Assembly (NCBI GenBank): GCA_035534755.1
Contig: DATLRH010000005.1
Span: 83,881-147,880, forward strand
Origin: Candidatus Dormiibacterota bacterium
Lineage (GTDB): Bacteria > Chloroflexota > Dormibacteria > Aeolococcales > Bog-877
Reading direction: 5' to 3'
Length of the DNA stretch: 64,000 nucleotides
Made by a program: the position numbers and the translations under genes. The notes beneath the pieces are model-generated. The model saw nothing but the letters and a program-made list of their open reading frames with translations. It did no database searches and was not told where the DNA came from. Below, piece by piece: positions 563 to 56,231 of this stretch; position 1 is the first letter of the stretch; every line of letters starts with the position of its first letter.

Positions 563-1285
563 TTACCCGGACCGGGTCCACCCAGGCAGAGCCCGGACGG
601 GCGCCAGGTCGGGGTCGCGAGCAGCGTTCTGGACGAGATCGGAGTTGAGCGAGACCGCCAGAGTCACCTCAGTCATGGCGTCCTCGGTCCGGCCGACTCG
701 GGCCATGGCGCACGCGAGCGCGTAGCGGGCCATTCCCAGGGCGGGCCTGGGCAACCGGACCGCCTCGGCCAACGCCACAGCGGAGCCGTGCAGCCGCAGG
801 GCACGCTCCCCCTGACCCCGGCTCAGCCAGTGCTCACCCAGGTGGCCGCCTGGATGCCAGAAACCCCGGACCACCACCTGGAGCCACAGCTGACGACCAT
901 GCAGCCATGGGTTTCGGCCCGGGTCGGTGAGATCAGAATCCGGGAGGTCCCAGAGCAGGTGCACCAGCTCGGCCGTGGTCGAGAGGCTCCCGGCTAGGAC
1001 CTGGTCGGAGTTCGGTCGGGCGAATCTGTGAAAGATCTCCGAAGACGTGTGGTCGGTCTCCGCAAAGGAGGGCCGGGTTTCACCAGCGAGGACCGCCCGG
1101 AGACGGACGACCTGCTGTGACTTGAACTCGGTGCTGTGGGCGATCAGGGCTGAGAGCGGCCAGTCCTGGGGAGTACCCGGTCGCGCCCTATCCTCTCCCG
1201 ATTCGCCGAGCAGGGCCGCTTCCTCGGCGCCGGCGACGAGCCGCACCATGGCTCCGATCGATTCTCTCAGTTCAGAACCTGGCAC
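563..1285 (-). CDS. Hypothetical protein, possibly DinB/mycothiol-dependent maleylpyruvate isomerase N-terminal-domain-like
   Basis: 240-aa ORF with coding-like GC3 bias; N-terminal segment PGTPQDWPLSALIAHS resembles the W...AH signature of MDMPI_N/DinB_2 proteins; weak assignment. Confidence 0.3.
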   Translation of the reverse strand: MPGSELRESIGAMVRLVAGAEEAALLGESGEDRARPGTPQDWPLSALIAHSTEFKSQQVVRLRAVLAGETRPSFAETDHTSSEIFHRFARPNSDQVLAGSLSTTAELVHLLWDLPDSDLTDPGRNPWLHGRQLWLQVVVRGFWHPGGHLGEHWLSRGQGERALRLHGSAVALAEAVRLPRPALGMARYALACAMARVGRTEDAMTEVTLAVSLNSDLVQNAARDPDLAPVRALPGWTRSG

Positions 1286-2716: not shown

Positions 2717-3223
2717 GTGTCGTCGAGGCGTCCTGATCCTGAAGCAGAAGCGCTGGCCGAGCGCTGGGTCGGCCTGTACGGGGATCTAGCCTTGCGAACC
2801 GCCTACCTATTCCTTCGCGATCAGGGTCTTGCCGAGGACTGCGTCCAGGACGCCTTCGTGAGCGCGTGGCGGGCCCGCTCCAGCCTGCGCGACCCCGGGG
2901 CCGAACGCGCTTGGCTGATGACGATCGTGGCCAACACTGCCCGCTCACACCTCCGCCGCCGGATCCCCATCCCAACCGACACCCTCCCCGCTGATCCCTC
3001 CACTCACGACCCGTTCGACGAGCTGGCCCTTTCGGCCGACCTGGGACTGGCACTGGACCAGCTGCCGTCCGACCAGCGCGAGGTGATCGTGCTTCGGGTC
3101 TACCTCGATCTCTCGGTCGAGGAAACCGCCCGCGCCCTCAGAGTGGCCGAGGGTACTGTGAAGTCCCGACTAAGCCGCGCCTTGGAGGCCCTTCGCCTGA
3201 TATGGACCCCGACGACCGACTGA
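2717..3223 (+). CDS. ECF (sigma-70 family) RNA polymerase sigma factor
   Basis: Region 2 (DCVQDAFVSAWRA) and region 4 HTH (LDLSVEETARALRVAEGTVKSRLSRA); GTG start. Confidence 0.8.
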   Translation: MSSRRPDPEAEALAERWVGLYGDLALRTAYLFLRDQGLAEDCVQDAFVSAWRARSSLRDPGAERAWLMTIVANTARSHLRRRIPIPTDTLPADPSTHDPFDELALSADLGLALDQLPSDQREVIVLRVYLDLSVEETARALRVAEGTVKSRLSRALEALRLIWTPTTD

Positions 3224-3903
3224 CGGACCAGGTGCGCGAAGAGCTCCGCCGCTCCTTGAGCGAGATGCGACTGCACCCGGAATTCCGCGAGGAGCTGAAG
3301 GGGAGGCTCCTGGCGACGCCGGCCCGCGGGTGGCGCCGTTGGGTGGCCGCCTGGCCGGCGGTGAGCCACCATCCCGGGGCGGTGGCGGGCGTTGCCCTGG
3401 CGGCGATTGTGGTCGCGGTCGGGCTTCCCCTTGCGGCCGTCCTACACCAGCACTCAACGACCAGCCCGCGCTACCTGGTGACAATTTCGCCCCGACTCGG
3501 CGCCGGGGCCAACCGCGCCGCAGTCGCCGCCCCAGCCACGTGCTCTGGGAAGACCGTTCATCTGAGTGTCTCCCCGGCCCGGGCCACGCTCGCCGCAGGT
3601 CAGGGCGTCCAGTTCGAGGTTACCGAGACCGGAGCCGCCTGCCTACTCGACGCGACGGTCGCGGGTCCGTCGGCGGCCGGCCTCTCGATCGTTCCCACCT
3701 CACTGTCATCGGCAACCCCGAACGGGGCTTCCTTCCGGGTCAGCTGGTCCGGCCGTCCGGCGGCGACTGCGGCGGGGACCAAGTCGAGCGTGTCGGCAGG
3801 CTCGGGACCCGGGCGCCAGCTAGCCCCGGGTGTCTACCGGGTGACCGTGAGCGCGGCACCGTCGGGACCCCGGGTGATCATCTCGATCACGATCACGGGG
3901 TAG
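3202..3903 (+). CDS. Putative anti-sigma factor (single-pass membrane protein) cognate to the upstream ECF sigma
   Basis: Overlaps the sigma gene by 22 nt; short N-terminal cytoplasmic helix region, one TM helix (VAGVALAAIVVAVGLPLAAVL), Ala/Ser/Thr-rich extracytoplasmic domain. Confidence 0.5.
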   Translation: MDPDDRLTDQVREELRRSLSEMRLHPEFREELKGRLLATPARGWRRWVAAWPAVSHHPGAVAGVALAAIVVAVGLPLAAVLHQHSTTSPRYLVTISPRLGAGANRAAVAAPATCSGKTVHLSVSPARATLAAGQGVQFEVTETGAACLLDATVAGPSAAGLSIVPTSLSSATPNGASFRVSWSGRPAATAAGTKSSVSAGSGPGRQLAPGVYRVTVSAAPSGPRVIISITITG

Positions 3904-5551: not shown

Positions 5552-5815
5552 CCCGCGGGGAACACGGCGGGTTGGTCGACCCATAGCCCCGGCCCATGGG
5601 CACGCCGACTCTTCCGAGTGCCAGAGTCATGCGGAGACCGGTCCCGGCTCCCGGTGGACAGCCTGCGAGCGGGCTAAAGACTCTTGCCTGAGCGACCACC
5701 CAATAGCGCCAGGACCGGCCGCGCCGGCGTCAGGCCAGATCCAGGAGGGCCGGTTGCGCCCGGACCGCGTGCGGGTTATGCTTGCCCCAGCTCGCGTGTC
5801 CATACACGCAACGTC

Positions 5816-6337
5816 ATGAATACCGTCCTAGAAAGACCGCAGATCGCCGCGAGCACGCTGGAAGGTTTGGTGCGCCAGCATCTCGATTCCCTGGTCACCT
5901 ACGCCCTTCACCTCACCGGGACGGCCGAGGATGCCGTCGAATACGTGACTGCGGGACTCTTTCACGCCCGGCAGTTCCCAGCCGCCGCGCTGGAGCGCGA
6001 CGGGCGGGCGATCCTCTATCGAGCCGTGACGCGTGCCGCCCGCCAGAACCAGCACTATCCCCCGCAGCGGCGCGGGGTCGCCCGCTTCTTCTCCAAGCGT
6101 CCCCCGTTGATCAGTCTGGGTCCGGCCGCCGCCGACGCGGGTCGGATCAACACCGCCAAGAGGGCCTTGTTAGCGACCGAGTTCAGTCGCCGCGCATCCT
6201 TGCTGCTGCGCGACCTAGCCAAGCTGTCCTATCGCGAGATTGGGGTGGCGATGGAGTGTTCCCCGGAGGCGGCGTCCCGCCTGGTGGCCTCGGCGCGTCG
6301 GGAGTTTGGCAGCATCTATCGCGATATCTCGATATGA
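5816..6337 (+). CDS. Sigma-70 family (ECF-like) sigma factor
   Basis: Region 4 HTH LLLRDLAKLSYREIGVAMECSPEAASRLVASARREF and a region-2-like N-terminus; ATG at 5816 chosen because the upstream in-frame stretch is Pro/Arg-rich. Confidence 0.65.
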   Translation: MNTVLERPQIAASTLEGLVRQHLDSLVTYALHLTGTAEDAVEYVTAGLFHARQFPAAALERDGRAILYRAVTRAARQNQHYPPQRRGVARFFSKRPPLISLGPAAADAGRINTAKRALLATEFSRRASLLLRDLAKLSYREIGVAMECSPEAASRLVASARREFGSIYRDISI

Positions 6338-7914
6338 AATGCAGCCTGCTGACCCTGAGCTGCGCCCTCGACGGGGAGCTTTCCCGCGAACGTCAGCTTG
6401 ATCTCGACGCTCATTTGGTCACCTGCGAACGGTGCAAGACTGGGATGAGGTATCTCCGCGAGGAGACCGAGCGCGTTTCCCTGCTCGCCGCAGTCAGGTT
6501 GGCGCCAGACAAGGCGACCGCACTGCTAGAGCGCAGCCGGATCCTGGTCTCTGGAGACGTGCACCCGGGGAGCGAATACGCGGGGGTTCCTGGACAGGCG
6601 GTCCCCCAGCCCCAGCTCCCCGCGCCTGATCCGTTCGGCGCGCTCGGGATCGGGGCGGCAATTCTGGAAGCCGCCCCCGAACCGGACCCGGGTTCCGTCC
6701 CGGCGACGGATGACTCGCCGGAACGGCCCCCCTCCGCAGTCATCCCGGAGGCGGAGACGGTGACGGAGGCGGTGACGGAGGAATCGGAGCTGGAACAGGG
6801 CAGCGCGTTCGAGGCCGAGCAGGCCGACCTCTCGTCTGCTGACGCGTTCGCCGCGGTTCCAGAGGTGCTGTGGCTGATGGACACCCCCGAGGAGCCGGCC
6901 GCCGAGGACCCGACGGAAAGTCCCGGCGCCGCGGGGCTCCCGGTGCCACGTGAGCCCTCGGACATCTTCTCGGGCCCAGCAGAGCCGTCCCCTTCGGCGG
7001 AACCCTCCGCGATCCCCGACCACGAACCGGAAACGGTGTCTCGTCCCAGCTCGATGGTAGTGCCCGGCTGGGAACCCGCGACCGAACTCAAGATGCCGTG
7101 GGAGGACATCCCGTCCGCCGCGCCCGCCCACGACACCTGGACTCCCGAGCTGGCCGGCGTCCCGGTTTCAAGGGAGAGTCCCCTGCCACCACCGGCGCCC
7201 TTCCCGGCGGCGCCCCCCGCCCGGCCTGCTGCCGCGGCCGTGCCGAAGCTCCAATCCGACCCGAAGCGGCCGGGATTCGACCGGGGAATTCCGAAAGGGA
7301 CCGCTGGGGGCGGTCGACGGCCGGTTCCCCCCAAGCCAGGAAGCAACGGCGCTGAGCCGCGCAGCTGGACCCGGACCGGGCTGATCGCTGTGGCGGCCCT
7401 CGCCGTGGTGCTGATCCTCTGGAACATCACCCATGGCCCGGGCCAGAAAGCTGTCCCCCCTCCCCGCGGCCAGGCGAGCCCCGCTGCCACGGCGACGCCC
7501 CGCCCATCGGCTACCGCCACACCGTCGACCACGGCCCCGCAGCTGACTCTCACGGGCACCCAGACGCTCGGGAGCGGAGGCACCGGCTACCAGGTCCAGA
7601 GCGTGCAATACGGAGTGCACGGGTCTCAGTTCTGGGTGGTCATCCACTTCACCGGCGGCACAGGGGTGCCTACCATCACCTCTGGATTCGACGGCGCTCA
7701 GACCATCTACCTGGAGATGCAGGGGGTCGCGCCCGGAACCGCGGTCGCGCAGCCGGCGGCCGGAAGCTTGGTATCCAGCGTCGAGGTGGGCCATGTCGCC
7801 GGGTTCAAGGGCGCCGTGTATGTTCTCCAACTCAGCCGCGCGGCCCAGATCTCGCCCTCGGAGCTGACCGGCAGCGAGGCTGGGGCACCGGGCTACTTGG
7901 CAATCATCCAGTAG
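6334..7914 (+). CDS. Zinc-binding (ZAS-type) anti-sigma factor. It has a long disordered acidic/Pro-rich linker, a single TM helix and a C-terminal extracytoplasmic beta-domain
   Basis: ATGA overlap with the sigma gene; N-terminal LSCALDGELS...HLVTCERCK with an H-x3-C-x2-C ZAS motif; TM GLIAVAALAVVLILWNI; C-terminal ~130-aa Gly/Thr/Val-rich domain. Confidence 0.55.
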   Translation: MKCSLLTLSCALDGELSRERQLDLDAHLVTCERCKTGMRYLREETERVSLLAAVRLAPDKATALLERSRILVSGDVHPGSEYAGVPGQAVPQPQLPAPDPFGALGIGAAILEAAPEPDPGSVPATDDSPERPPSAVIPEAETVTEAVTEESELEQGSAFEAEQADLSSADAFAAVPEVLWLMDTPEEPAAEDPTESPGAAGLPVPREPSDIFSGPAEPSPSAEPSAIPDHEPETVSRPSSMVVPGWEPATELKMPWEDIPSAAPAHDTWTPELAGVPVSRESPLPPPAPFPAAPPARPAAAAVPKLQSDPKRPGFDRGIPKGTAGGGRRPVPPKPGSNGAEPRSWTRTGLIAVAALAVVLILWNITHGPGQKAVPPPRGQASPAATATPRPSATATPSTTAPQLTLTGTQTLGSGGTGYQVQSVQYGVHGSQFWVVIHFTGGTGVPTITSGFDGAQTIYLEMQGVAPGTAVAQPAAGSLVSSVEVGHVAGFKGAVYVLQLSRAAQISPSELTGSEAGAPGYLAIIQ

Positions 7915-16656: not shown

Positions 16657-17475
16657 CTAGGACCCGAGCTCCAGCACCTTCACCAGCCGCTGGCCATACC
16701 AGCGACTAAATAGAGCCACCGCGACAGCCAACGCCACGACCAACAGCACCACCACCAGGGGATGCAGCGGGCTGCTCGAAAGCGGCAACAAAGCGCCAAT
16801 CAAGCACCCCAGAGCTAGCGCGACCGCTACCGCGGCAAGCGAAAGTAGGGGCAGCCAGACGGAGATCCTGATGGCCCGACTGACCGGCGGGGGGGACATG
16901 GAAGCGAGTCGATCCCGGCGGATGACGGTCAGAGTTTGTACGTAATTCAGGGCCGGGGTGACCGTCAGTCCGACCACGGTAGCCCCTCCGTGTAACTTCT
17001 CGAAGAGTTCCGATCGCACCCGGAACTGCTCAACGTTCTTGCCCACCGTTAGTGCTACGGTCGCCAGGCTGGGAGTCGGAGAGACGAGGCTGGCGCCCAC
17101 CAACGGTCCCTGAACCGTGCGGGCCGGCAGGCGCCGGTCTCGGCGCATCGCCCGCATGGGCGGCGCCACCACAGAGGCTGAGAGCCCGACGATGGTCAGA
17201 GCCACAAGCAGGACCACCATGCCCAGGAGCAGGTCATGCTGACCGATCTCTACCAGAATGGCAAAGACGGCGGCGATGATCAGGAGCAGGCTAACCAGCG
17301 CCACCCCCAGGGTGAGGCGCCGGACCATCCCTGGGGCTAGGCCCTCCAGCAGTCCACCCCGGCTCATCACGTCGGATCGCCTTGGCGCCTGTGCCTGATC
17401 TCGAACGGCGGTTCGCTGCTGGCTCTCCAAGCGAGCCTGGCGACGGCGGAGTTCTCGACTTCCCGGGTTACGCAT
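16657..17475 (-). CDS. Hypothetical membrane protein (possible membrane-flanked bPH_2/DUF304-like topology)
   Basis: Several hydrophobic helices flank a soluble middle segment; good GC3 bias; no recognisable catalytic motif. Confidence 0.35.
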   Translation of the reverse strand: MRNPGSRELRRRQARLESQQRTAVRDQAQAPRRSDVMSRGGLLEGLAPGMVRRLTLGVALVSLLLIIAAVFAILVEIGQHDLLLGMVVLLVALTIVGLSASVVAPPMRAMRRDRRLPARTVQGPLVGASLVSPTPSLATVALTVGKNVEQFRVRSELFEKLHGGATVVGLTVTPALNYVQTLTVIRRDRLASMSPPPVSRAIRISVWLPLLSLAAVAVALALGCLIGALLPLSSSPLHPLVVVLLVVALAVAVALFSRWYGQRLVKVLELGS

Positions 17476-18149: not shown

Positions 18150-18223
<74 letters not shown>

Positions 18224-18272
18224 CGCCTTCGCCGGGGGCCCAGTCTACCGAACGTCAGAACCGCCTCCTTCC

Positions 18273-52194: not shown

Positions 52195-52737
52195 CTACGG
52201 GGTGGGAGTTGGGTGTCCTGGGGCGCCTCCACTTCCAGTCCCGTTTCCGCTCGAATTGCCTTTGCCGTTGGCGCCAGATCCCTTGCCAGGCGGCGACGAG
52301 GGTCGTCCGTGACGGTGACCCGATCCTGGGGTATTGGAGGGGGAGAGTCGGGAGGCAGCTGACCCGCCCGGCCGGGGAGGCGACGGCGACCCGATCGAGC
52401 CTCCGCGATGACGGTCAGGGGACGGCGAGGGACCGCTGCAGTCCCTTGCCGTCGGGCAGCCGGCCGCGGCGGCGGGGTGGCTTGGTGAGGGCGCCGGTCG
52501 CGCCGGGGCCGTGATCAGGTGCACCGCCGCCGTCGCGCCGCCGGCGAGCAGGGCGGCGCCGACAAGTCCGACGACGATCACCCCAACACGGGGTGCGAGG
52601 CGGAGTCTGCGGACCAGTTGCCCCCATCGGCCAGGTCCGCGTCTCAGGTACCGAGCCGTCTCGTGCGGCGGCTGGGACTCCTCGGGCAAGGCGCTCTGCA
52701 GCTGCGAGGTCAGCCAGCGATCAAACTCGTCAGGCAT
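52195..52737 (-). CDS. Putative anti-sigma factor / single-pass membrane protein (Pro/Ser/Gly-rich extracytoplasmic tail)
   Basis: Overlaps the ECF sigma gene by 8 nt; short N-terminal motif DEFDRWLTSQLQSAL, one TM helix, low-complexity C-terminus. Confidence 0.4.
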   Translation of the reverse strand: MPDEFDRWLTSQLQSALPEESQPPHETARYLRRGPGRWGQLVRRLRLAPRVGVIVVGLVGAALLAGGATAAVHLITAPARPAPSPSHPAAAAGCPTARDCSGPSPSPDRHRGGSIGSPSPPRPGGSAASRLSPSNTPGSGHRHGRPSSPPGKGSGANGKGNSSGNGTGSGGAPGHPTPTP

Positions 52738-53317
52738 CCTGCACCTGCCCCGTCCGCGACTCGGACCCCAGCGGTGTCTGGCGCGGCGTGGAATCCCGTC
52801 CCGTACTGGTGGCTAGATCTAGTTCCAGCTCGATCATCAGCTTCGCCTTTGCGGCGACCAGGCGCGAGGCCACCGTGCGCTCCGGGATTCCCAGGGCGAA
52901 GCCAATCTCGCGATTGCTGTACCCGTGGAGGTGCCGAAGGACAATGACGGCCGCTTGGCGCGGAGGCAGCTTCCGGAGAGCCCGTCCCAGGTCAAGCGAA
53001 GTCGCCACGTTTCCCGGGTCCGGCGGAGACTCGGGACGACCCAGTCGGCGGATCGATTCCGCCACGCCTCGCAGCTTCTGACGGCGGCGCACCGAGACCG
53101 CCCGATTGATGGCGATGCGGTGCAGCCAGGCCGCCGCCGGGGCCTCGGGCCGGTAGGAGGTCCAGTTGCGGAACGCCTGGACGAAAGCATCTTGGACGCA
53201 GTCCTCGGCGTCGTCGCCGACGATGGCGCGAACGGTCTGGAGCAACCTCGAACGCTCATCCCGATAAAGACGATCGAAGTCGGCCGCGGACCCGGGTTGA
53301 TACTCCTCAGCAGCCAC
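52730..53317 (-). CDS. ECF sigma factor
   Basis: Region 2 (DCVQDAFVQAFRNW) and region 4 HTH (HGYSNREIGFALGIPERTVASRL). Confidence 0.8.
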   Translation of the reverse strand: MAAEEYQPGSAADFDRLYRDERSRLLQTVRAIVGDDAEDCVQDAFVQAFRNWTSYRPEAPAAAWLHRIAINRAVSVRRRQKLRGVAESIRRLGRPESPPDPGNVATSLDLGRALRKLPPRQAAVIVLRHLHGYSNREIGFALGIPERTVASRLVAAKAKLMIELELDLATSTGRDSTPRQTPLGSESRTGQVQDA

Positions 53318-53393
53318 CAGCGCGAGTATGGCGCGTGGGATCCCGAGCGGGACCAGCCCGACGACACGGGGCGATGCCGATCAGGTGACAGGG

Positions 53394-53897
53394 CTAGGTA
53401 ACGTAATCGATCGCAGTCGCCGTGATCGTTCGGGGCCCCAGCCCGAAGTACCCCGCGAAATTCACGTAGGGCAGCGTCACCTGGATTTCGCAGCCGTAGG
53501 TTCCCCCCGGCAGTCCGGTTGAGCTGGGCGCCGGCGCGGCCCGGTCGGTGAGCGTGGCCGCCGTAATCGTCGTCGCGAACGGTCCCGCGGCGGCTCGGGC
53601 CGACGCCACCATCGCCGCCGGAGGCGGGGCTCCTGGGCACTGCGGCGAGTGGGTCGGAGTGGTCGACCAATTGACACTTGCCACCCCCCACCGCGCGGCC
53701 GCCTGGGCCGAATCGTTGGCGACCTGAACCTCCAACACGTAGGTGGCTCCGCTGAAGATGCCGACCACGGCAGCGAAAAAGAGCGGCGCGACCACCGCAA
53801 ACTCGACCATTGTGGCCCCGATCTGGCGCCGGCGACGGAAGCGGTGCCGGGGAGCGCTCCCGGGATGAATCAGAGCGAATCGCCGACCGACTCTCAC
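53394..53897 (-). CDS. TadE-like pilus assembly protein (pseudopilin)
   Basis: N-terminal TadE motif GATMVEFAVVAPLFFAAVVGIF. Confidence 0.6.
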   Translation of the reverse strand: MRVGRRFALIHPGSAPRHRFRRRRQIGATMVEFAVVAPLFFAAVVGIFSGATYVLEVQVANDSAQAAARWGVASVNWSTTPTHSPQCPGAPPPAAMVASARAAAGPFATTITAATLTDRAAPAPSSTGLPGGTYGCEIQVTLPYVNFAGYFGLGPRTITATAIDYVT

Positions 53898-54388
53898 TGC
53901 TCTGGAACCACCAGCACCTGGGCCGTGGAACCGATCGTCACCGGCGAGGGCAGGAGCGGGGTCAAGAGCGGCAGCCGGCAGGACACCGTGACCGTCTCGT
54001 AGTACGGGGCCCCACCGGGGGTGGGACTGCTGGGTGAGGATGTGACGGTGAGGCCCGAAGTCGGACAGTTGAGAGGACCGGCTCCGGCGTTGTTCTCGGC
54101 GATCGTCTGGAGCTGAGCCGCGGTATACCCGGTTCCGGCCAGGTAACCTGATCCTGAGGGGTCCAGGGTGGGAGCGTTTCCGGAGGCGTAGACCGCCGCC
54201 TGGCGAGCGCCGTCCGCTACCTGGATACCCACGAAGTACGCTCGAGCCAGATCGGCCCCGCCGCTGAAGAGCAGCAGCAGGAGCGGCAGGACGAGAGCGA
54301 ACTCAACCAGGCTCTGTCCCCGCGGACGGGCACGGTGGTTACTGGTAGAGCTCAACGCTGGTGGGGGAGGTGTTGGTGACCGGCGCAC
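53894..54388 (-). CDS. TadE-like pilus assembly protein (second copy)
   Basis: N-terminal GQSLVEFALVLPLLLLLFSGGADL TadE signature. Confidence 0.6.
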   Translation of the reverse strand: MRRSPTPPPPALSSTSNHRARPRGQSLVEFALVLPLLLLLFSGGADLARAYFVGIQVADGARQAAVYASGNAPTLDPSGSGYLAGTGYTAAQLQTIAENNAGAGPLNCPTSGLTVTSSPSSPTPGGAPYYETVTVSCRLPLLTPLLPSPVTIGSTAQVLVVPEQ

Positions 54389-55421
54389 AAGAAGGATCGC
54401 CTGCCGGGCAGATGGTCAGGCCCTGGACGCTGGGACTGGTGCTCGTGACTTGGCCCAAGATTTGCACCCGCGACGCCGAGGTGACGACCACCTCGATCAT
54501 GCCCGAGTAGGTCAGCTTGTACGGTCCCGCGTTGCTCGCGGAGTAGCCGGGGCAGTACCCCTTCTGGTACGAGCTGATGATCGGGATCAGGTAGGGCTGG
54601 CCCACGATCAAGGCGGGAGGGTTCCTGATGCCGACTCCAGGGCCAGTCTGGATGCAGGAGCCAGGCGCCAAGGGGAGCGTGATCGGCGACACCGGGTCGA
54701 TGTATCCCTTGAAGCTGGCTGGGGGACCGGAGCCACAGGTGTACTTGTCCCAGGACGGGTCTAGGAGCACCACAATGTCGGTGACCGCCAAGGGACCGCC
54801 GCTGCCCGAGTAACACAATGCGTCCCAGGCCGCGAAGGGCGCGCCGGACCCTCCCGCCACGGTGCCGAACAGCGCGGTGGATGTCGCGCCCTCGGTCGCA
54901 TTGTTGACCCCGATGATCCGCAGAATCAGGGTAGTGTGTGCGTCCTGCGCGGTGACTTCGACACCGGACGGTCCCACCCACGCGTTGGCGAGGCAATAAG
55001 GCTGCGCATAGCTGGAGACGGGTCCAAGCGAGGGCACCACACCAGCCTTTGGATAGCTCACGAAGTCGACCGTCGGTGAACCGGTCACCTTGCCTTGGGC
55101 CGCTGCGGCGGCAAAAGTGATCTTGGTCGCGGCGGCGGAGATTTGAGCGTCCCCGTAGGGCAGGGATTCCCCGGACACGCAGGCGTGGAAGTCCGCCGCT
55201 AGCAAGCTTGCTCCCGACTGGGCAGACGTGTCCGTCGCCGCCTGCAGAACCCGCTGGTCCACGAAGTCGCGTCCTGCGTCGATGCTCAGGCCCACGATGG
55301 ACACGATTGCGATCGCCGCGAGGGCGAATAACACTGCCACCTGGCCACCCTGCGACCTCCTCCGGCCTTCCGCCCGCTCCAGGCAGTGGACCTCGGTTCC
55401 CGGGAGCAGCCCGTTTCTCAA
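54339..55421 (-). CDS. TadG-like (Tad_N domain) pilus assembly protein
   Basis: N-terminal GGQVAVLFALAAIAIVSIVGLSIDAG resembles the TadG/Tad_N membrane anchor; large Gly/Ser/Thr-rich C-terminal domain. Confidence 0.5.
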   Translation of the reverse strand: MRNGLLPGTEVHCLERAEGRRRSQGGQVAVLFALAAIAIVSIVGLSIDAGRDFVDQRVLQAATDTSAQSGASLLAADFHACVSGESLPYGDAQISAAATKITFAAAAAQGKVTGSPTVDFVSYPKAGVVPSLGPVSSYAQPYCLANAWVGPSGVEVTAQDAHTTLILRIIGVNNATEGATSTALFGTVAGGSGAPFAAWDALCYSGSGGPLAVTDIVVLLDPSWDKYTCGSGPPASFKGYIDPVSPITLPLAPGSCIQTGPGVGIRNPPALIVGQPYLIPIISSYQKGYCPGYSASNAGPYKLTYSGMIEVVVTSASRVQILGQVTSTSPSVQGLTICPAGDPSCAPVTNTSPTSVELYQ

Positions 55422-55912
55422 GGCCGCCCCGGTGGGGACGCCACGGGCCCTCGGCCGATCGCGTGGACCGGATCGGCAGGCGGTGGCAGCTGAGAGTGCC
55501 CGGGCGACGTCCCGACCCGCCGATGGCCGGGCGGGACCGCGACCGGTCCCCGTCCTCGCACCCGGCTGCCGGCGCTGAGGCCTCGCATCCGGAGGTACCC
55601 GATTCCGCCGGGATCAGTACCGTGAAAGACCGGTGGCGAAGTTAGTGGGGAGTGGGACGGGCGAGACGAACCCGCGAGTCCGAGCGGCCCTATCCCCTGA
55701 CCGGCGCGAGGGGCTGCCGCCGAGACTGCGACAGCGACGACCGCGGCGAGGGCCGTCACCGCCATCAAGGCCGAGACGCGATGCCGTCTATGGACGCCGC
55801 TGAGGGAAGGGCGACCGCCCTCAGGAAGTCGCGCGTCCGCCAAGGCGACTGGAAGTTCTCGTTCCAGCCAGCCATCGAGGGGGTCGCCGCTGCCTATGCC
55901 TGCGTTCCACAT
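55418..55912 (-). CDS. Single-pass membrane protein paralogous to the 52195..52737 anti-sigma-like protein; translationally coupled to tadG
   Basis: N-terminal DPLDGWLERELPVALADARLPE is similar to DEFDRWLTSQLQSALPEE of 52195..52737; one TM helix; ATGA overlap with tadG; no adjacent sigma gene. Confidence 0.35.
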   Translation of the reverse strand: MWNAGIGSGDPLDGWLERELPVALADARLPEGGRPSLSGVHRRHRVSALMAVTALAAVVAVAVSAAAPRAGQGIGPLGLAGSSRPSHSPLTSPPVFHGTDPGGIGYLRMRGLSAGSRVRGRGPVAVPPGHRRVGTSPGHSQLPPPADPVHAIGRGPVASPPGRP

Positions 55913-56231
55913 GCTGAGAAGAGAACGCGTGTACCTGACGAAGTACCCATTCGGAGTCGGCTTTGGCTTCGCCTCGAGGGGAGAAAGTCCTCACTCCTGC
56001 CCAAAACGGCTTGGCCCGGGTCGGGCACCCGGCCGCCAACGCCGCATGGACTCGGGGGTCAGCGTTAGCACTTGGGTCAAAACGCGACCGCCCGGGCTTT
56101 CCGCCTCACGAGCGGAGCTCTTGCCTCCGACCACCCATCATCCGGGCCTCAGGAATCGCACCTCAACTCGAGAAGCGACTTCCGGGCCCCACGCCGGCCC
56201 GCGCACTGCTGGCTGGGGCAGTGAACCTGCC

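What the first reader, a model, noticed from the sequence alone, without database searches (positions are those of the whole stretch)
52195..55912. Tad pseudopilin trio (TadG, TadE, TadE) embedded with an ECF sigma/anti-sigma pair and a paralogous single-pass membrane protein
The six co-directional minus-strand genes, in order, are:
- a membrane protein (55418..55912) whose start region is translationally coupled to tadG;
- a TadG-like protein;
- two TadE-like proteins;
- an ECF sigma factor;
- an anti-sigma-like membrane protein.

The first and last proteins share an N-terminal motif (D-x-x-D-x-WL...L..AL) and are evidently paralogs. No flp pilin gene or tadABC/cpaF ATPase genes are present in the cluster. 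This suggests a non-canonical use or regulation of TadE/TadG-like proteins, directly linked to an ECF sigma module.
Basis: partly seen in the sequence, partly recalled or inferred. Interest (0 to 1): 0.55.

Follow-up and report, generated by a model that had tools for sequence, protein, structure and literature searches.

The report
Sigma-factor-controlled Tad pseudopilin operon
An uncultured soil bacterium (Candidatus Dormibacterota) keeps three pilus "minor subunit" genes, with no pilus machinery nearby, in one operon with their own dedicated sigma factor, a membrane anti-sigma-like protein and a copy of that protein; the arrangement is conserved across the phylum, but what it does is untested.

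Summary
Six co-directional minus-strand genes are present: a 164-aa membrane protein (ORF1), a TadG-like protein (PF13400), two TadE-like proteins (PF07811, both with the G/xxxxEF prepilin motif), an ECF sigma factor and a 180-aa single-pass membrane protein that overlaps the sigma stop codon. No flp, cpaF/tadA or tadB/C/Z genes occur anywhere in the 64-kb window, nor within 8-10 kb of the module in the related loci.

The module is conserved in Candidatus Dormibacterota. Sigma lies next to the trio in 17 of 19 informative loci, in three gene orders and several genome contexts.

A new result is an ECF-type promoter, GGGTA-N16-CGTT. It ends 8-11 nt before the first start codon. It occurs once in the window and 19 times in 286 kb of related loci (about 1.3 expected), 18 of them at the head of the operon.

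The two membrane proteins share a conserved N-terminal helix, [F/L]-D-x-W-L-x-x-E-L-x-x-x-L. It is seen at profile level, not by pairwise BLAST.

Best reading: a self-contained sigma/anti-sigma switch drives a tadEFG-type minor-pilin operon. ORF1 probably acts as a feedback paralog. The pilus machine, if any, is encoded elsewhere. Anti-sigma activity and pilus use are inferred. This is a new variant of known kinds, of moderate interest.

The parts
55924..55948 (-). ECF-type promoter GGGTAC-N16-CGTT (-35 GGGTA at 55948-55944; -10 CGTT at 55927-55924), 11 nt upstream of the ORF1 ATG, implying a leaderless or near-leaderless transcript
   Evidence: It is the only match in the 64-kb window. The same motif at the same place is found in nearly every related locus: 19 exact matches in 286 kb against 1.3 expected, 18 of them upstream of the ORF1-like gene or TadG.
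55418..55912 (-). ORF1: 164-aa single-pass membrane protein, first gene of the operon. Its N-terminal helix DPLDGWLERELPVAL is paralogous to that of the anti-sigma-like ORF6, followed by a membrane helix (about residues 46-68) and a Pro/Gly-rich tail.
   Evidence: sequence. Orthologs in 12 other loci. Profile cross-hits and joint alignment. Synonymous-change support. No Pfam or NCBIfam family.
54339..55421 (-). TadG-like protein (360 aa): N-terminal Tad domain and membrane helix, then a Cys-rich beta-rich extracytoplasmic domain (five invariant Cys). The start TTG overlaps the ORF1 stop (cTTGA).
53894..54388 (-). TadE-like pseudopilin 1 (start GTG 54388 or TTG 54355). Class-III signal peptide and cleavage motif RG/QSLVEFAL.
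   Evidence: PF07811, E 1e-10. The motif is invariant across loci. AF2 model with pLDDT 88.9: long N-terminal helix plus a small beta-sheet head. No PDB relative.
53394..53897 (-). TadE-like pseudopilin 2 (TadF-equivalent). Motif G/ATMVEFAV. The start GTG overlaps the TadE1 stop (GTGA).
   Evidence: PF07811, E 1e-8. Junction sequence. Conserved in all loci.
53318..53393 (-). 76-bp gap between TadE2 and sigma. It holds a conserved TGTCAC (53390-53385) and a -10-like CATACT (53330-53325), 7 nt before the sigma GTG. This is a possible separate promoter for a leaderless sigma/anti-sigma transcript.
   Evidence: CAWACT lies 7-10 nt before the GTG in 14 of 15 loci (GATACT in L022). TGTNAC or a near variant lies about 65 nt upstream in 10 of the 12 sigma-last loci. 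The function is inferred only.
52730..53317 (-). [quoted passage not shown]
   Evidence: Sigma70_r2, r4_2 and ECF. TIGR02937 is above its cut-off; SigE-fam_strep scores 98.5 against a cut-off of 141.6. Closest solved structures are M. tuberculosis SigE and SigL, and CnrH. 59-73% identical across loci.
52195..52737 (-). ORF6: anti-sigma-like single-pass membrane protein, 180 aa. About 50 cytoplasmic residues (helix DEFDRWLTSQLQSAL, then a PRY-type motif), a Gly/Ala-rich membrane helix, and a tail that is 55-65% Pro/Ser/Gly with a Cys pair. It overlaps the sigma stop by 8 nt.
   Evidence: Orthologs after sigma in 14 other loci. Only 4 hits among 1.84 billion representative proteins. No Pfam, NCBIfam or PDB relative.

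Best explanation
This is a self-contained, Dormibacterota-specific ECF sigma regulon whose main, and possibly only, local target is a tadE/tadF/tadG-type minor-pilin operon.

Proposed mechanism, each step marked shown or inferred:
1. Sigma and ORF6 are made together. Their genes overlap (shown), and they may have their own leaderless promoter, CATACT-N7-GTG (inferred).
2. ORF6 holds sigma at the membrane through its short N-terminal amphipathic helix (inferred from position and architecture).
3. An extracytoplasmic cue removes ORF6, probably by regulated proteolysis. Its Gly-rich membrane helix and disordered Pro/Ser/Gly tail suit this (inferred).
4. Free sigma transcribes orf1-tadG-tadE-tadE from GGGTA-N16-CGTT. 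The conservation and position of this promoter are shown; recognition by this particular sigma is inferred.
5. In the window's gene order, read-through would also raise sigma and ORF6 (inferred positive feedback).
6. ORF1 is the first gene product and carries the same N-terminal helix as ORF6 (shown). It probably re-captures sigma or competes for it (inferred negative feedback). RsbN, which is a target of BldN, is a precedent.
7. The three pseudopilins are cut by a prepilin peptidase. A Tad or type-IV-filament machine encoded elsewhere then uses them to prime or tip a pilus (inferred from the invariant G/xxxxEF motif and the family's known role).
For: Domain identities.

Tight operon structure with overlapping stop and start codons.

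Conservation of the trio with sigma:
- Sigma is adjacent in 17 of 19 informative non-redundant Dormibacterota loci.
- The genome contexts differ: PfkB/Nramp in the window, secE-nusG-rplK...rpoBC in many loci, purine genes in L005.
- There are three gene orders, including sigma-first (L005, L022, L024).
- Sigma is more conserved (59-73% identity) than TadG (25-77%).

Promoter:
- It is the unique match in the window.
- There are 19 exact matches in 286 kb against 1.3 expected, with a maximum of 6 in 200 shuffles. Eighteen lie on the coding strand at the head of the ORF1-like gene or TadG. Start codons lie 8-11 nt downstream.
- Sigma-first loci carry the motif separately before the ORF1-like gene and before TadG.

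Shared helix of ORF1 and ORF6.

Pseudopilin character:
- The prepilin motifs RGQSLVEFAL and GATxVEFAL are invariant or nearly so.
- A TadE-TadE-TadG trio lies directly beside SAF, TadZ, TadB, TadC and CpaF in the canonical locus L025. This shows the trio's ordinary role.
- TadE1 orthologs fused to He_PIG or PKD Ig-like domains imply surface exposure.
- The TadE1 model has a pilin-like long helix plus a beta head.

Precedent for an ECF sigma that drives surface structural proteins and its own anti-sigma: BldN/RsbN (PMC6101532).
Against: - There is no experimental or covariation evidence that this sigma reads GGGTA-N16-CGTT. The -35 element lacks the usual ECF 'AAC'.
- ORF6 and ORF1 match no known anti-sigma domain. 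Their roughly 50-residue cytoplasmic part is too short for a class I domain.
- No Flp pilin, ATPase, platform protein or prepilin peptidase was found in the window or in about 330 kb of related loci. A partner machine is therefore assumed, not seen.
- Two loci have the trio without an adjacent sigma (L028, L013).
- Type B loci replace ORF1 with an unrelated small ORF, so ORF1 is dispensable for the core module.
Confidence: 0.55

Rival explanations
1. Machine-independent use. The TadG/TadE/TadE proteins do not build a pilus. They form a membrane-anchored pseudopilus or complex that is itself the input device of the switch. ORF6 and ORF1 would sense the membrane pool or assembly state of the pseudopilins through helix-helix contacts in the membrane, much as the PilS sensor kinase senses PilA (the PilS analogy is from my own knowledge).
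For: - No tad or type IV pilus machinery lies in the window or near any of the roughly 25 related loci.
- The membrane helices of ORF1 and ORF6 are conserved and rich in Gly and Ala.
- The extracytoplasmic tails have no folded sensor domain.
- Related Chloroflexota-like loci (L026, L027) also pair orphan trios with signalling genes, namely a two-component system.
Against: - The strictly conserved prepilin-peptidase motif implies processing, and by extension a filament machine.
- In L025 the same kind of trio is part of a complete tad locus.
- Ig-like domain fusions on TadE1 orthologs suggest an exposed adhesive tip.
- Minor-pilin genes separated from the core machine genes are common. Denise et al. 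note that prepilin peptidases are shared between systems and that minor pilins are not identifiable in many actinobacterial Tad-like systems (PMC6668835).
Confidence: 0.15
2. ORF1 is not a sigma-binding paralog but an accessory or anchoring protein for the pseudopilins. Under this reading, the N-terminal helix shared with ORF6 binds some other common cytoplasmic partner, or is a sorting or oligomerisation signal.
For: - ORF1 is translationally coupled to TadG.
- ORF1 lacks the PRY motif that follows the helix in ORF6 proteins.
- ORF1 is replaced by an unrelated small ORF in type B loci, while sigma and ORF6 remain.
- The similarity is limited to about 15 residues plus general architecture.
Against: - The conserved residues W, L, L, L fall on one face of a helix in both families.
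- The only conserved cytoplasmic protein encoded in the module is sigma.
- ORF1 stays with the module even in the sigma-first order, and has its own copy of the promoter there.
Confidence: 0.2
3. The adjacency is historical only. The sigma/ORF6 pair controls other genes, and the GGGTA-N16-CGTT promoter is read by a different sigma factor.
For: - No direct evidence ties this sigma to this promoter.
- The sigma gene has its own conserved upstream elements.
- Two loci lack an adjacent sigma.
- Genomes may carry two paralogous modules with the same promoter motif (L012 with L018, L014 with L023).
Against: - The linkage survives at least three rearrangements and several genome contexts in 17 of 19 informative loci.
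- The motif is essentially confined to the module in 286 kb and occurs nowhere else in the 64-kb window.
Confidence: 0.08

Closest known systems
tadE-tadF-tadG pseudopilin genes of the tad (tight adherence, type IVc pilus) locus (Aggregatibacter; cpaJKL-type minor pilins in Caulobacter)
   Same: - Two PF07811 proteins with a G/xxxxEF prepilin motif, plus one PF13400 protein, encoded as a trio.
- The same kind of trio sits beside SAF, TadZ, TadB, TadC and CpaF in L025.
   Different: - Here the order is G-E-E.
- No flp, tadV or tadZABC lies within 64 kb, or near any related locus.
- The trio is fused into an operon with an ECF sigma, an anti-sigma-like protein and its paralog.
- The TadG C-terminal domain is Cys-rich, lacks a vWA domain and has no fold match.
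BldN-RsbN of Streptomyces (an ECF sigma that drives the chaplin and rodlin surface-structure genes, with a single-pass anti-sigma that is itself a BldN target; PMC6101532)
   Same: - An ECF sigma dedicated to secreted or surface structural proteins.
- A single-pass membrane anti-sigma with no similarity to class I domains.
- A member of the anti-sigma family (here ORF1) placed under the sigma-dependent promoter.
   Different: - No sequence relationship was found to any solved anti-sigma, RsbN included.
- RsbN has a 117-residue, three-helix cytoplasmic domain. ORF6 has about 50 residues with one clear helix.
- The targets are pseudopilins, not amyloid sheath proteins.
Class II anti-sigma factors (CnrY, NepR: a short two-helix clamp)
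   Same: - A very short cytoplasmic sigma-binding region and a single membrane helix.
- CnrH is among the closest solved sigma factors.
   Different: - No detectable sequence similarity. The PDB profile search did not return CnrY.
- The tail is long and disordered rather than a short periplasmic peptide.
- Binding was not tested.
Orphan TadE(PKD)-TadE-Tad trios next to a two-component system (and an unrelated ECF pair) in loci L026 and L027, the latter from Limnocylindrales
   Same: Stand-alone trios without an ATPase or platform gene within 10 kb, placed beside signal-transduction genes.
   Different: - The regulators differ: a response regulator and histidine kinase.
- The L027 sigma and its partner are not orthologous. 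There is no tblastn hit, no WL helix and no GGGTA-N16-CGTT motif.

Membership tests
Tad / type IVc pilus system | TadA/CpaF secretion ATPase (T2SSE) | tested here: not met
   No T2SSE in the Pfam scans of the window. No Walker-A GxxGSGKTT ORF. No tblastn hit to the L025 CpaF in the window or in 24 related loci; the regex positive control worked.
Tad / type IVc pilus system | TadB/TadC platform proteins (T2SSF) and TadZ/CpaE | tested here: not met
   No Pfam T2SSF or ParA-like TadZ in the window. No tblastn hits.
Tad / type IVc pilus system | Flp major pilin and TadV/CpaA prepilin peptidase | tested here: not met
   A six-frame scan for G-x4-E-[YF] finds only the two TadE genes. No Peptidase_A24 domain in the ORFs scanned with Pfam. 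ORFs under 150 aa in 1-44 kb were not all scanned.
Tad / type IVc pilus system | Pseudopilins TadE/TadF (PF07811) with a G/xxxxEF processing motif, and TadG (PF13400) | tested here: met
   all three are above Pfam gathering scores. The motifs RGQSLVEF and GATMVEF are conserved in all loci.
Tad / type IVc pilus system | Pseudopilins are cleaved by the prepilin peptidase and required for pilus assembly | not testable with these tools
   Needs the complete genome and experiments.
ECF (group IV) sigma factors | [quoted passage not shown] | tested here: met
   Sigma70_r2 (residues 17-81) and Sigma70_r4_2 (residues 109-160). TIGR02937 scores 73.2 against a cut-off of 42.9.
ECF (group IV) sigma factors | Co-transcribed cognate anti-sigma factor | tested here: inconclusive
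   A single-pass membrane protein overlaps the sigma stop in the window and in 14 other loci. It has no recognisable anti-sigma domain.
ECF (group IV) sigma factors | Target or autoregulated promoter with a conserved -35 and a CGT-containing -10 | tested here: inconclusive
   A conserved GGGTA-N16-CGTT lies at the operon head. The -10 fits, but the -35 lacks the usual AAC. Recognition by this sigma was not tested.
SigE-family (Streptomyces-type) ECF subfamily TIGR02983 | Score at or above the NCBIfam cut-off | tested here: not met
   98.5 bits against a cut-off of 141.55. It is the best-scoring subfamily, but this sigma is not a member.
Class I anti-sigma domain (RseA/RsrA/RskA/zf-HC2 type) | A cytoplasmic domain of about 80-90 residues with four helices, detectable by Pfam (zf-HC2, RskA and similar) | tested here: not met
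   No Pfam or NCBIfam hit at E <= 1. Only about 50 residues precede the membrane helix.
Class II anti-sigma domain (CnrY/NepR) | A short two-helix clamp that binds sigma-2 and sigma-4 | tested here: inconclusive
   The size is compatible. The profile search of PDB sequences gave no CnrY or NepR hit. A complex model could not be run because chimeric or locus sequences are not accepted by the structure tool.

The most novel reading that the evidence does not exclude
Dormibacterota may use a detached TadE/TadF/TadG trio without a dedicated Tad machine, as part of a trans-envelope signalling device. In this reading, two paralogous proteins of a new, very short anti-sigma class (ORF6 and ORF1) read the membrane or assembly state of the pseudopilins and set the activity of a dedicated ECF sigma. 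[quoted passage not shown]
Probability: 0.12. Interest if true: 0.75.

Novelty: new variant of a known kind. Interest (0 to 1): 0.42.

Why it matters
Dormibacterota are abundant, uncultured soil and permafrost bacteria whose cell-surface biology is essentially unknown. No paper on their pili turned up in the searches.

This module gives three concrete handles:
- A phylum-wide operon with a defined promoter (GGGTA-N16-CGTT) and a dedicated ECF sigma. Both can be tested in a heterologous host.
- A lineage-restricted, very short anti-sigma-like family with an induced paralog. This could extend the known classes of ECF anti-sigma factors.
- A natural case in which minor-pilin genes are uncoupled from the pilus machine and placed under envelope-signal control. 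This bears on how pilus priming or tip complexes are regulated in bacteria that are probably monoderm (the envelope type is my assumption, not tested).

It does not overturn current views of either ECF sigma factors or Tad pili.

Tried and rejected
- Pairwise BLASTP of ORF1 against ORF6 found nothing significant. Profile and position-based tests replaced it.
- tblastn without composition correction gave floods of spurious hits from the Pro/Ser/Gly-rich tails. It was redone with composition statistics.
- The search for homologous proteins with the joint N-terminal alignment A2 returned nothing. The candidate list was probably swamped by low-complexity words, so a search was wasted.
- A single-sequence search of 1.84 billion representatives found only 4 relatives. 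The breadth of the family is therefore unknown beyond 'narrow'.
- A PDB sequence search with A2 gave only noise.
- Literature searches for TadE with ECF and anti-sigma, for the ECF re-classification paper, and for Dormibacterota with pili found no description of this association.
- The L027 ECF sigma beside TadE trios was considered as an ortholog and rejected: no tblastn hit, a different partner N-terminus, and no promoter motif.
- An ECF-type promoter directly upstream of sigma was looked for and not found. A different conserved pair of elements, TGTNAC and CAWACT, is present instead.
- The generic sigma-70 promoter and terminator scan gave nothing useful. The three overlapping terminator-like hits lie inside the TadE2 coding sequence.
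- The high-GC3 antisense ORF at 52209-52514 was considered as an alternative to the ORF6 tail and rejected. ORF6 is conserved in frame, overlaps sigma, and the skew is explained by its Pro/Ser/Gly codons.
- An exact-sequence look-up of a distant window protein failed because the start codon differs.

Full report
**Source and organism.** The window is a high-GC (about 68%) soil-metagenome contig. Identical genes occur on ENA contigs from PRJNA384362. Homologs of the TadG-like and TadE-like proteins that carry a source name are almost all labelled Candidatus Dormibacteraeota or Dormibacteria.

**Observation.** The ORF listing gives six co-directional minus-strand ORFs at exactly the reported coordinates.
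- Pfam confirms PF13400 (Tad) for 54339-55421, PF07811 (TadE) for 53894-54388 and 53394-53897, and the sigma-2, sigma-4 and ECF domains for 52730-53317.
- The two flanking membrane proteins match nothing in Pfam or NCBIfam.
- The junctions show a compact operon. The ORF1 stop TGA overlaps the only canonical TadG start (cTTGA). TadG and TadE1 overlap. TadE1 and TadE2 share GTGA. A 76-bp gap follows. Sigma and ORF6 overlap in ATGCCTGA.
- Both TadE proteins carry the prepilin-type motif (RG/QSLVEF and G/ATMVEF).

**Are ORF1 and ORF6 real genes and paralogs?**
- ORF1 was not called in the ENA annotation, and both ORFs have weak codon-position GC contrast.
- However, each has positional orthologs. 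Compared with L003 and L008, 38-54 codons per comparison differ only synonymously. The N-terminal part of ORF6 has normal coding bias, and the odd composition of the tails comes from Pro, Ser and Gly codons.
- Pairwise BLASTP of ORF1 against ORF6 is not significant.
- I therefore built an HMM from the first 50 residues of ten ORF6-position proteins only, and searched all 4235 stop-to-stop ORFs of the window and loci. After the ORF6 family itself, the next nine hits are all ORFs lying immediately upstream of TadG (E 3e-4 to 0.6), including the window's ORF1.
- A joint alignment of 21 N-termini has W, L, L, L (positions 8, 9, 13 and 17 of ORF6) at 90% conservation or more. A Gly/Ala-rich membrane helix follows about 35-45 residues later.

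**No tad machinery.**
- Precomputed Pfam hits for window 44.3-64 kb and my Pfam scans of 30 of the larger ORFs (>=160 aa) between 1 and 42 kb show housekeeping genes only. These include argS, serA, ssb, rpsF, a ThiF-like gene, the hut genes, a Mur ligase, SUF, BioY and ABC transporters.
- A six-frame scan finds no further Flp- or TadE-like motif.
- tblastn with CpaF, TadB, TadC, TadZ and CpaB from a genuine tad locus (L025) gives no hit in the window or in 24 related loci. The Walker-A regex, which matches that CpaF, hits nothing relevant.

**Conservation.**
- Context look-ups and a scan of GTDB species genomes gave 23 non-redundant loci, almost all named Dormibacterota.
- TadG, TadE1 and TadE2 are found in all of them except L020, whose contig ends within TadE1.
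- The ECF sigma is adjacent in 17 of the 19 loci whose sequence extends far enough. The exceptions are L013 and L028.
- The neighbourhoods differ: PfkB/Nramp here, secE-nusG-rplKAJL-rpoBC in many loci, and purine genes in L005.
- There are three arrangements:
  - Type A, as in the window: ORF1-TadG-TadE-TadE-sigma-ORF6.
  - Type B: ORF1 is replaced by an unrelated ORF of about 90 aa.
  - Type C: sigma-ORF6-ORF1-TadG-TadE-TadE, with TadE1 fused to an Ig-like He_PIG domain.
- Sigma (59-73% identity) is better conserved than TadG (25-77%).
- Linkage that survives rearrangement argues for a functional unit.

**Promoter.**
- Aligning the sequence upstream of the ORF1-like genes revealed GGGTA-N16-CGTT(C/T) ending 8-11 nt before the start codon.
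- In the window it is GGGTACTTCGTCAGGTACACGCGTT at 55948-55924, 11 nt before the ATG at 55912. It is the only match in 64 kb on both strands, against 0.28 expected.
- In 286 kb of non-redundant loci there are 19 exact matches, against 1.3 expected (maximum 6 in 200 shuffles). Eighteen are on the coding strand at the head of the ORF1-like gene or TadG.
- Type C loci have separate copies before the ORF1-like gene and before TadG. Type B loci have the variant with GGTT.
- The CGT-containing -10 and the spacing are typical of ECF promoters, from general knowledge of the family. The -35 GGGTA is unusual.
- The short distance to the start codon implies a leaderless or near-leaderless mRNA.
- No such motif precedes sigma. 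Instead, CAWACT lies 7-10 nt before the sigma GTG in 14 of 15 loci, and TGTNAC or a near variant lies about 65 nt upstream in most sigma-last loci. This may be a separate basal promoter, but that is inference only.

**Nature of the parts.**
- Sigma is a plain ECF sigma. It is nearest to, but below the cut-off of, the Streptomyces SigE-type subfamily. Among solved structures it is nearest to M. tuberculosis SigE and SigL, and to CnrH.
- ORF6 has about 50 cytoplasmic residues, which is too short for a class I anti-sigma domain. It has no relative in the PDB and only four relatives among 1.84 billion representative proteins.
- The ORF6 tail is 55-65% Pro, Ser and Gly. In the main clade it has a Cys pair about 20 residues after the membrane helix.
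- The TadE1 model is confident (pLDDT 88.9). It shows a long N-terminal helix and a small beta head, as in pilins, but has no close solved relative.
- The TadG model is mediocre (pLDDT 69.8) and matches no fold convincingly. Five Cys are invariant, which fits an extracytoplasmic location.

**Comparison with relatives outside the phylum.**
- A more distant TadE1 relative (L025) lies in a TadE-TadE-Tad trio directly upstream of SAF, TadZ, TadB, TadC and CpaF. That is an ordinary tad locus.
- Two others (L026, and L027 from Limnocylindrales) are orphan TadE(PKD)-TadE-Tad trios beside a two-component system.
- The ECF pair in L027 is not orthologous to the window's pair.
- The trio is therefore the familiar tadE/F/G set. 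Detaching it and pairing it with signalling genes recurs in this part of the tree. The ECF, ORF6 and ORF1 arrangement is specific to Dormibacterota.

**Mechanism.**
- The best-supported model is a dedicated ECF switch. Sigma is held by the short N-terminal helix of ORF6 and released on an envelope cue. It then transcribes orf1-tadG-tadE-tadE from GGGTA-N16-CGTT. In the window's gene order, read-through would raise sigma and ORF6.
- ORF1 would be an induced paralog that feeds back on sigma. The analogy is BldN/RsbN, where the anti-sigma gene is a target of its sigma and the regulon encodes surface structural proteins (PMC6101532).
- The pseudopilins are presumably processed and used by a filament machine encoded elsewhere.
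- Shown: gene content, operon structure, conservation, promoter conservation and position, and the shared helix.
- Inferred: sigma-promoter recognition, anti-sigma activity, the feedback role of ORF1, proteolytic release, and use in a pilus.

**Verdict.** The system is a new variant that combines two known kinds, an ECF sigma module and Tad minor pilins. It has a lineage-restricted, unusually short anti-sigma-like family. Interest is moderate. The main open question is whether these genomes hold a Tad machine at all, and it could not be answered with the data reachable here.

Noticed in passing
window 2717-3223 (+) and 3202-3903 (+): A second ECF sigma factor (Sigma70_r2 and r4_2) overlaps a 233-aa single-pass membrane protein with a different N-terminus (MDPDDRLTDQVREELRRSL...) and no Pfam family. 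This is another sigma/anti-sigma-like pair in the same window.
   Followed up: partly
window 53318-53393 (-); same position in 14 related loci: Conserved elements lie upstream of the sigma gene. CAWACT lies 7-10 nt before the GTG start (GATACT in L022), and TGTNAC(C) or a near variant lies about 65 nt upstream in most sigma-last loci. There is no GGGTA-N16-CGTT motif here. This may be a separate promoter for a leaderless sigma/anti-sigma mRNA, or an operator.
   Followed up: partly
L009 7755-8000, L018 226-445, L019 7725-8000, L020 7767-8000, L023 347-644, L029 8620-8854: In 'type B' modules the ORF1-like gene is replaced by a conserved ORF of about 90 aa, rich in Pro and Trp (MYVKVQLRLVP...EPSGRWW). 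It starts 9 nt after the promoter variant GGGTAG-N16-GGTT and ends overlapping TadG. It has no membrane helix and no WL motif.
   Followed up: partly
L012 with L018 (MAG clean217); L014 with L023 (MAG clean4834): Single MAGs carry two paralogous modules, one type A and one type B. Each has its own sigma and nearly the same promoter motif, which raises the possibility of cross-talk.
   Followed up: no
L004, L007, L012, L014, L016 (about 35 nt upstream of GGGTA); L009-type loci (about 12 nt upstream): A further conserved element, (A)CTTCGTTGC(A) or GGTTTCGTTGCCC, lies upstream of the -35. It is absent from the window, L003 and L008. Its function is unknown.
   Followed up: no
L005 11178-12143, L021 2713-3702, L022 9016-10032, L024 8839-10353; L026 and L027: TadE1 orthologs in sigma-first (type C) loci are two to three times longer than the window's TadE1. 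The L005 ortholog carries an Ig-like He_PIG domain, and TadE proteins in L026 and L027 carry PKD domains. This suggests an exposed, possibly adhesive, tip subunit.
   Followed up: partly
L028 8926-10894 (GCA_054609635.1); L013: These are exceptions. A TadG-TadE-TadE trio lies next to rpmG-secE-nusG with no sigma within 10 kb and no promoter motif (L028). L013 has no sigma in the 1.6 kb downstream of the trio.
   Followed up: partly
window 52420-52460 (ORF6 residues 94 and 100) and orthologs: The anti-sigma-like proteins of the main clade have exactly two Cys, about 20 residues after the membrane helix, in 9 of 10 loci. These are absent in the type B and C clades. Type B tails instead have His-rich repeats (GHGHSGTAPGHSP).
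   Followed up: no
window 55418-55912; L003 12643-13224; L004 9377-9988 and 12616-13464: Public gene calls often miss the ORF1-like and ORF6-like genes, or call an antisense ORF instead. The cause is their Pro/Ser/Gly-rich composition. An example is the antisense ORF at window 52209-52514, which has GC3 of 0.84.
   Followed up: yes
window 55382-55421: Between the TTG at 55421 and the conserved RRRSQGGQVAVLF, the window's TadG has no ATG, GTG or TTG. Close orthologs start about 20 codons later at an ATG. The window protein therefore either has a 20-residue N-terminal extension or uses a non-canonical start.
   Followed up: partly
window 5782-7914 (+), 20184-21287 (-), 16657-17475 (-), 563-1285 (-): Several sizeable ORFs with good coding signal have no Pfam family at E <= 1e-5 (710, 367, 272 and 240 aa).
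   Followed up: no
window 18150-18224 (-): tRNA-Val(CAC) is the only Rfam or ARAGORN hit in the window.
   Followed up: yes
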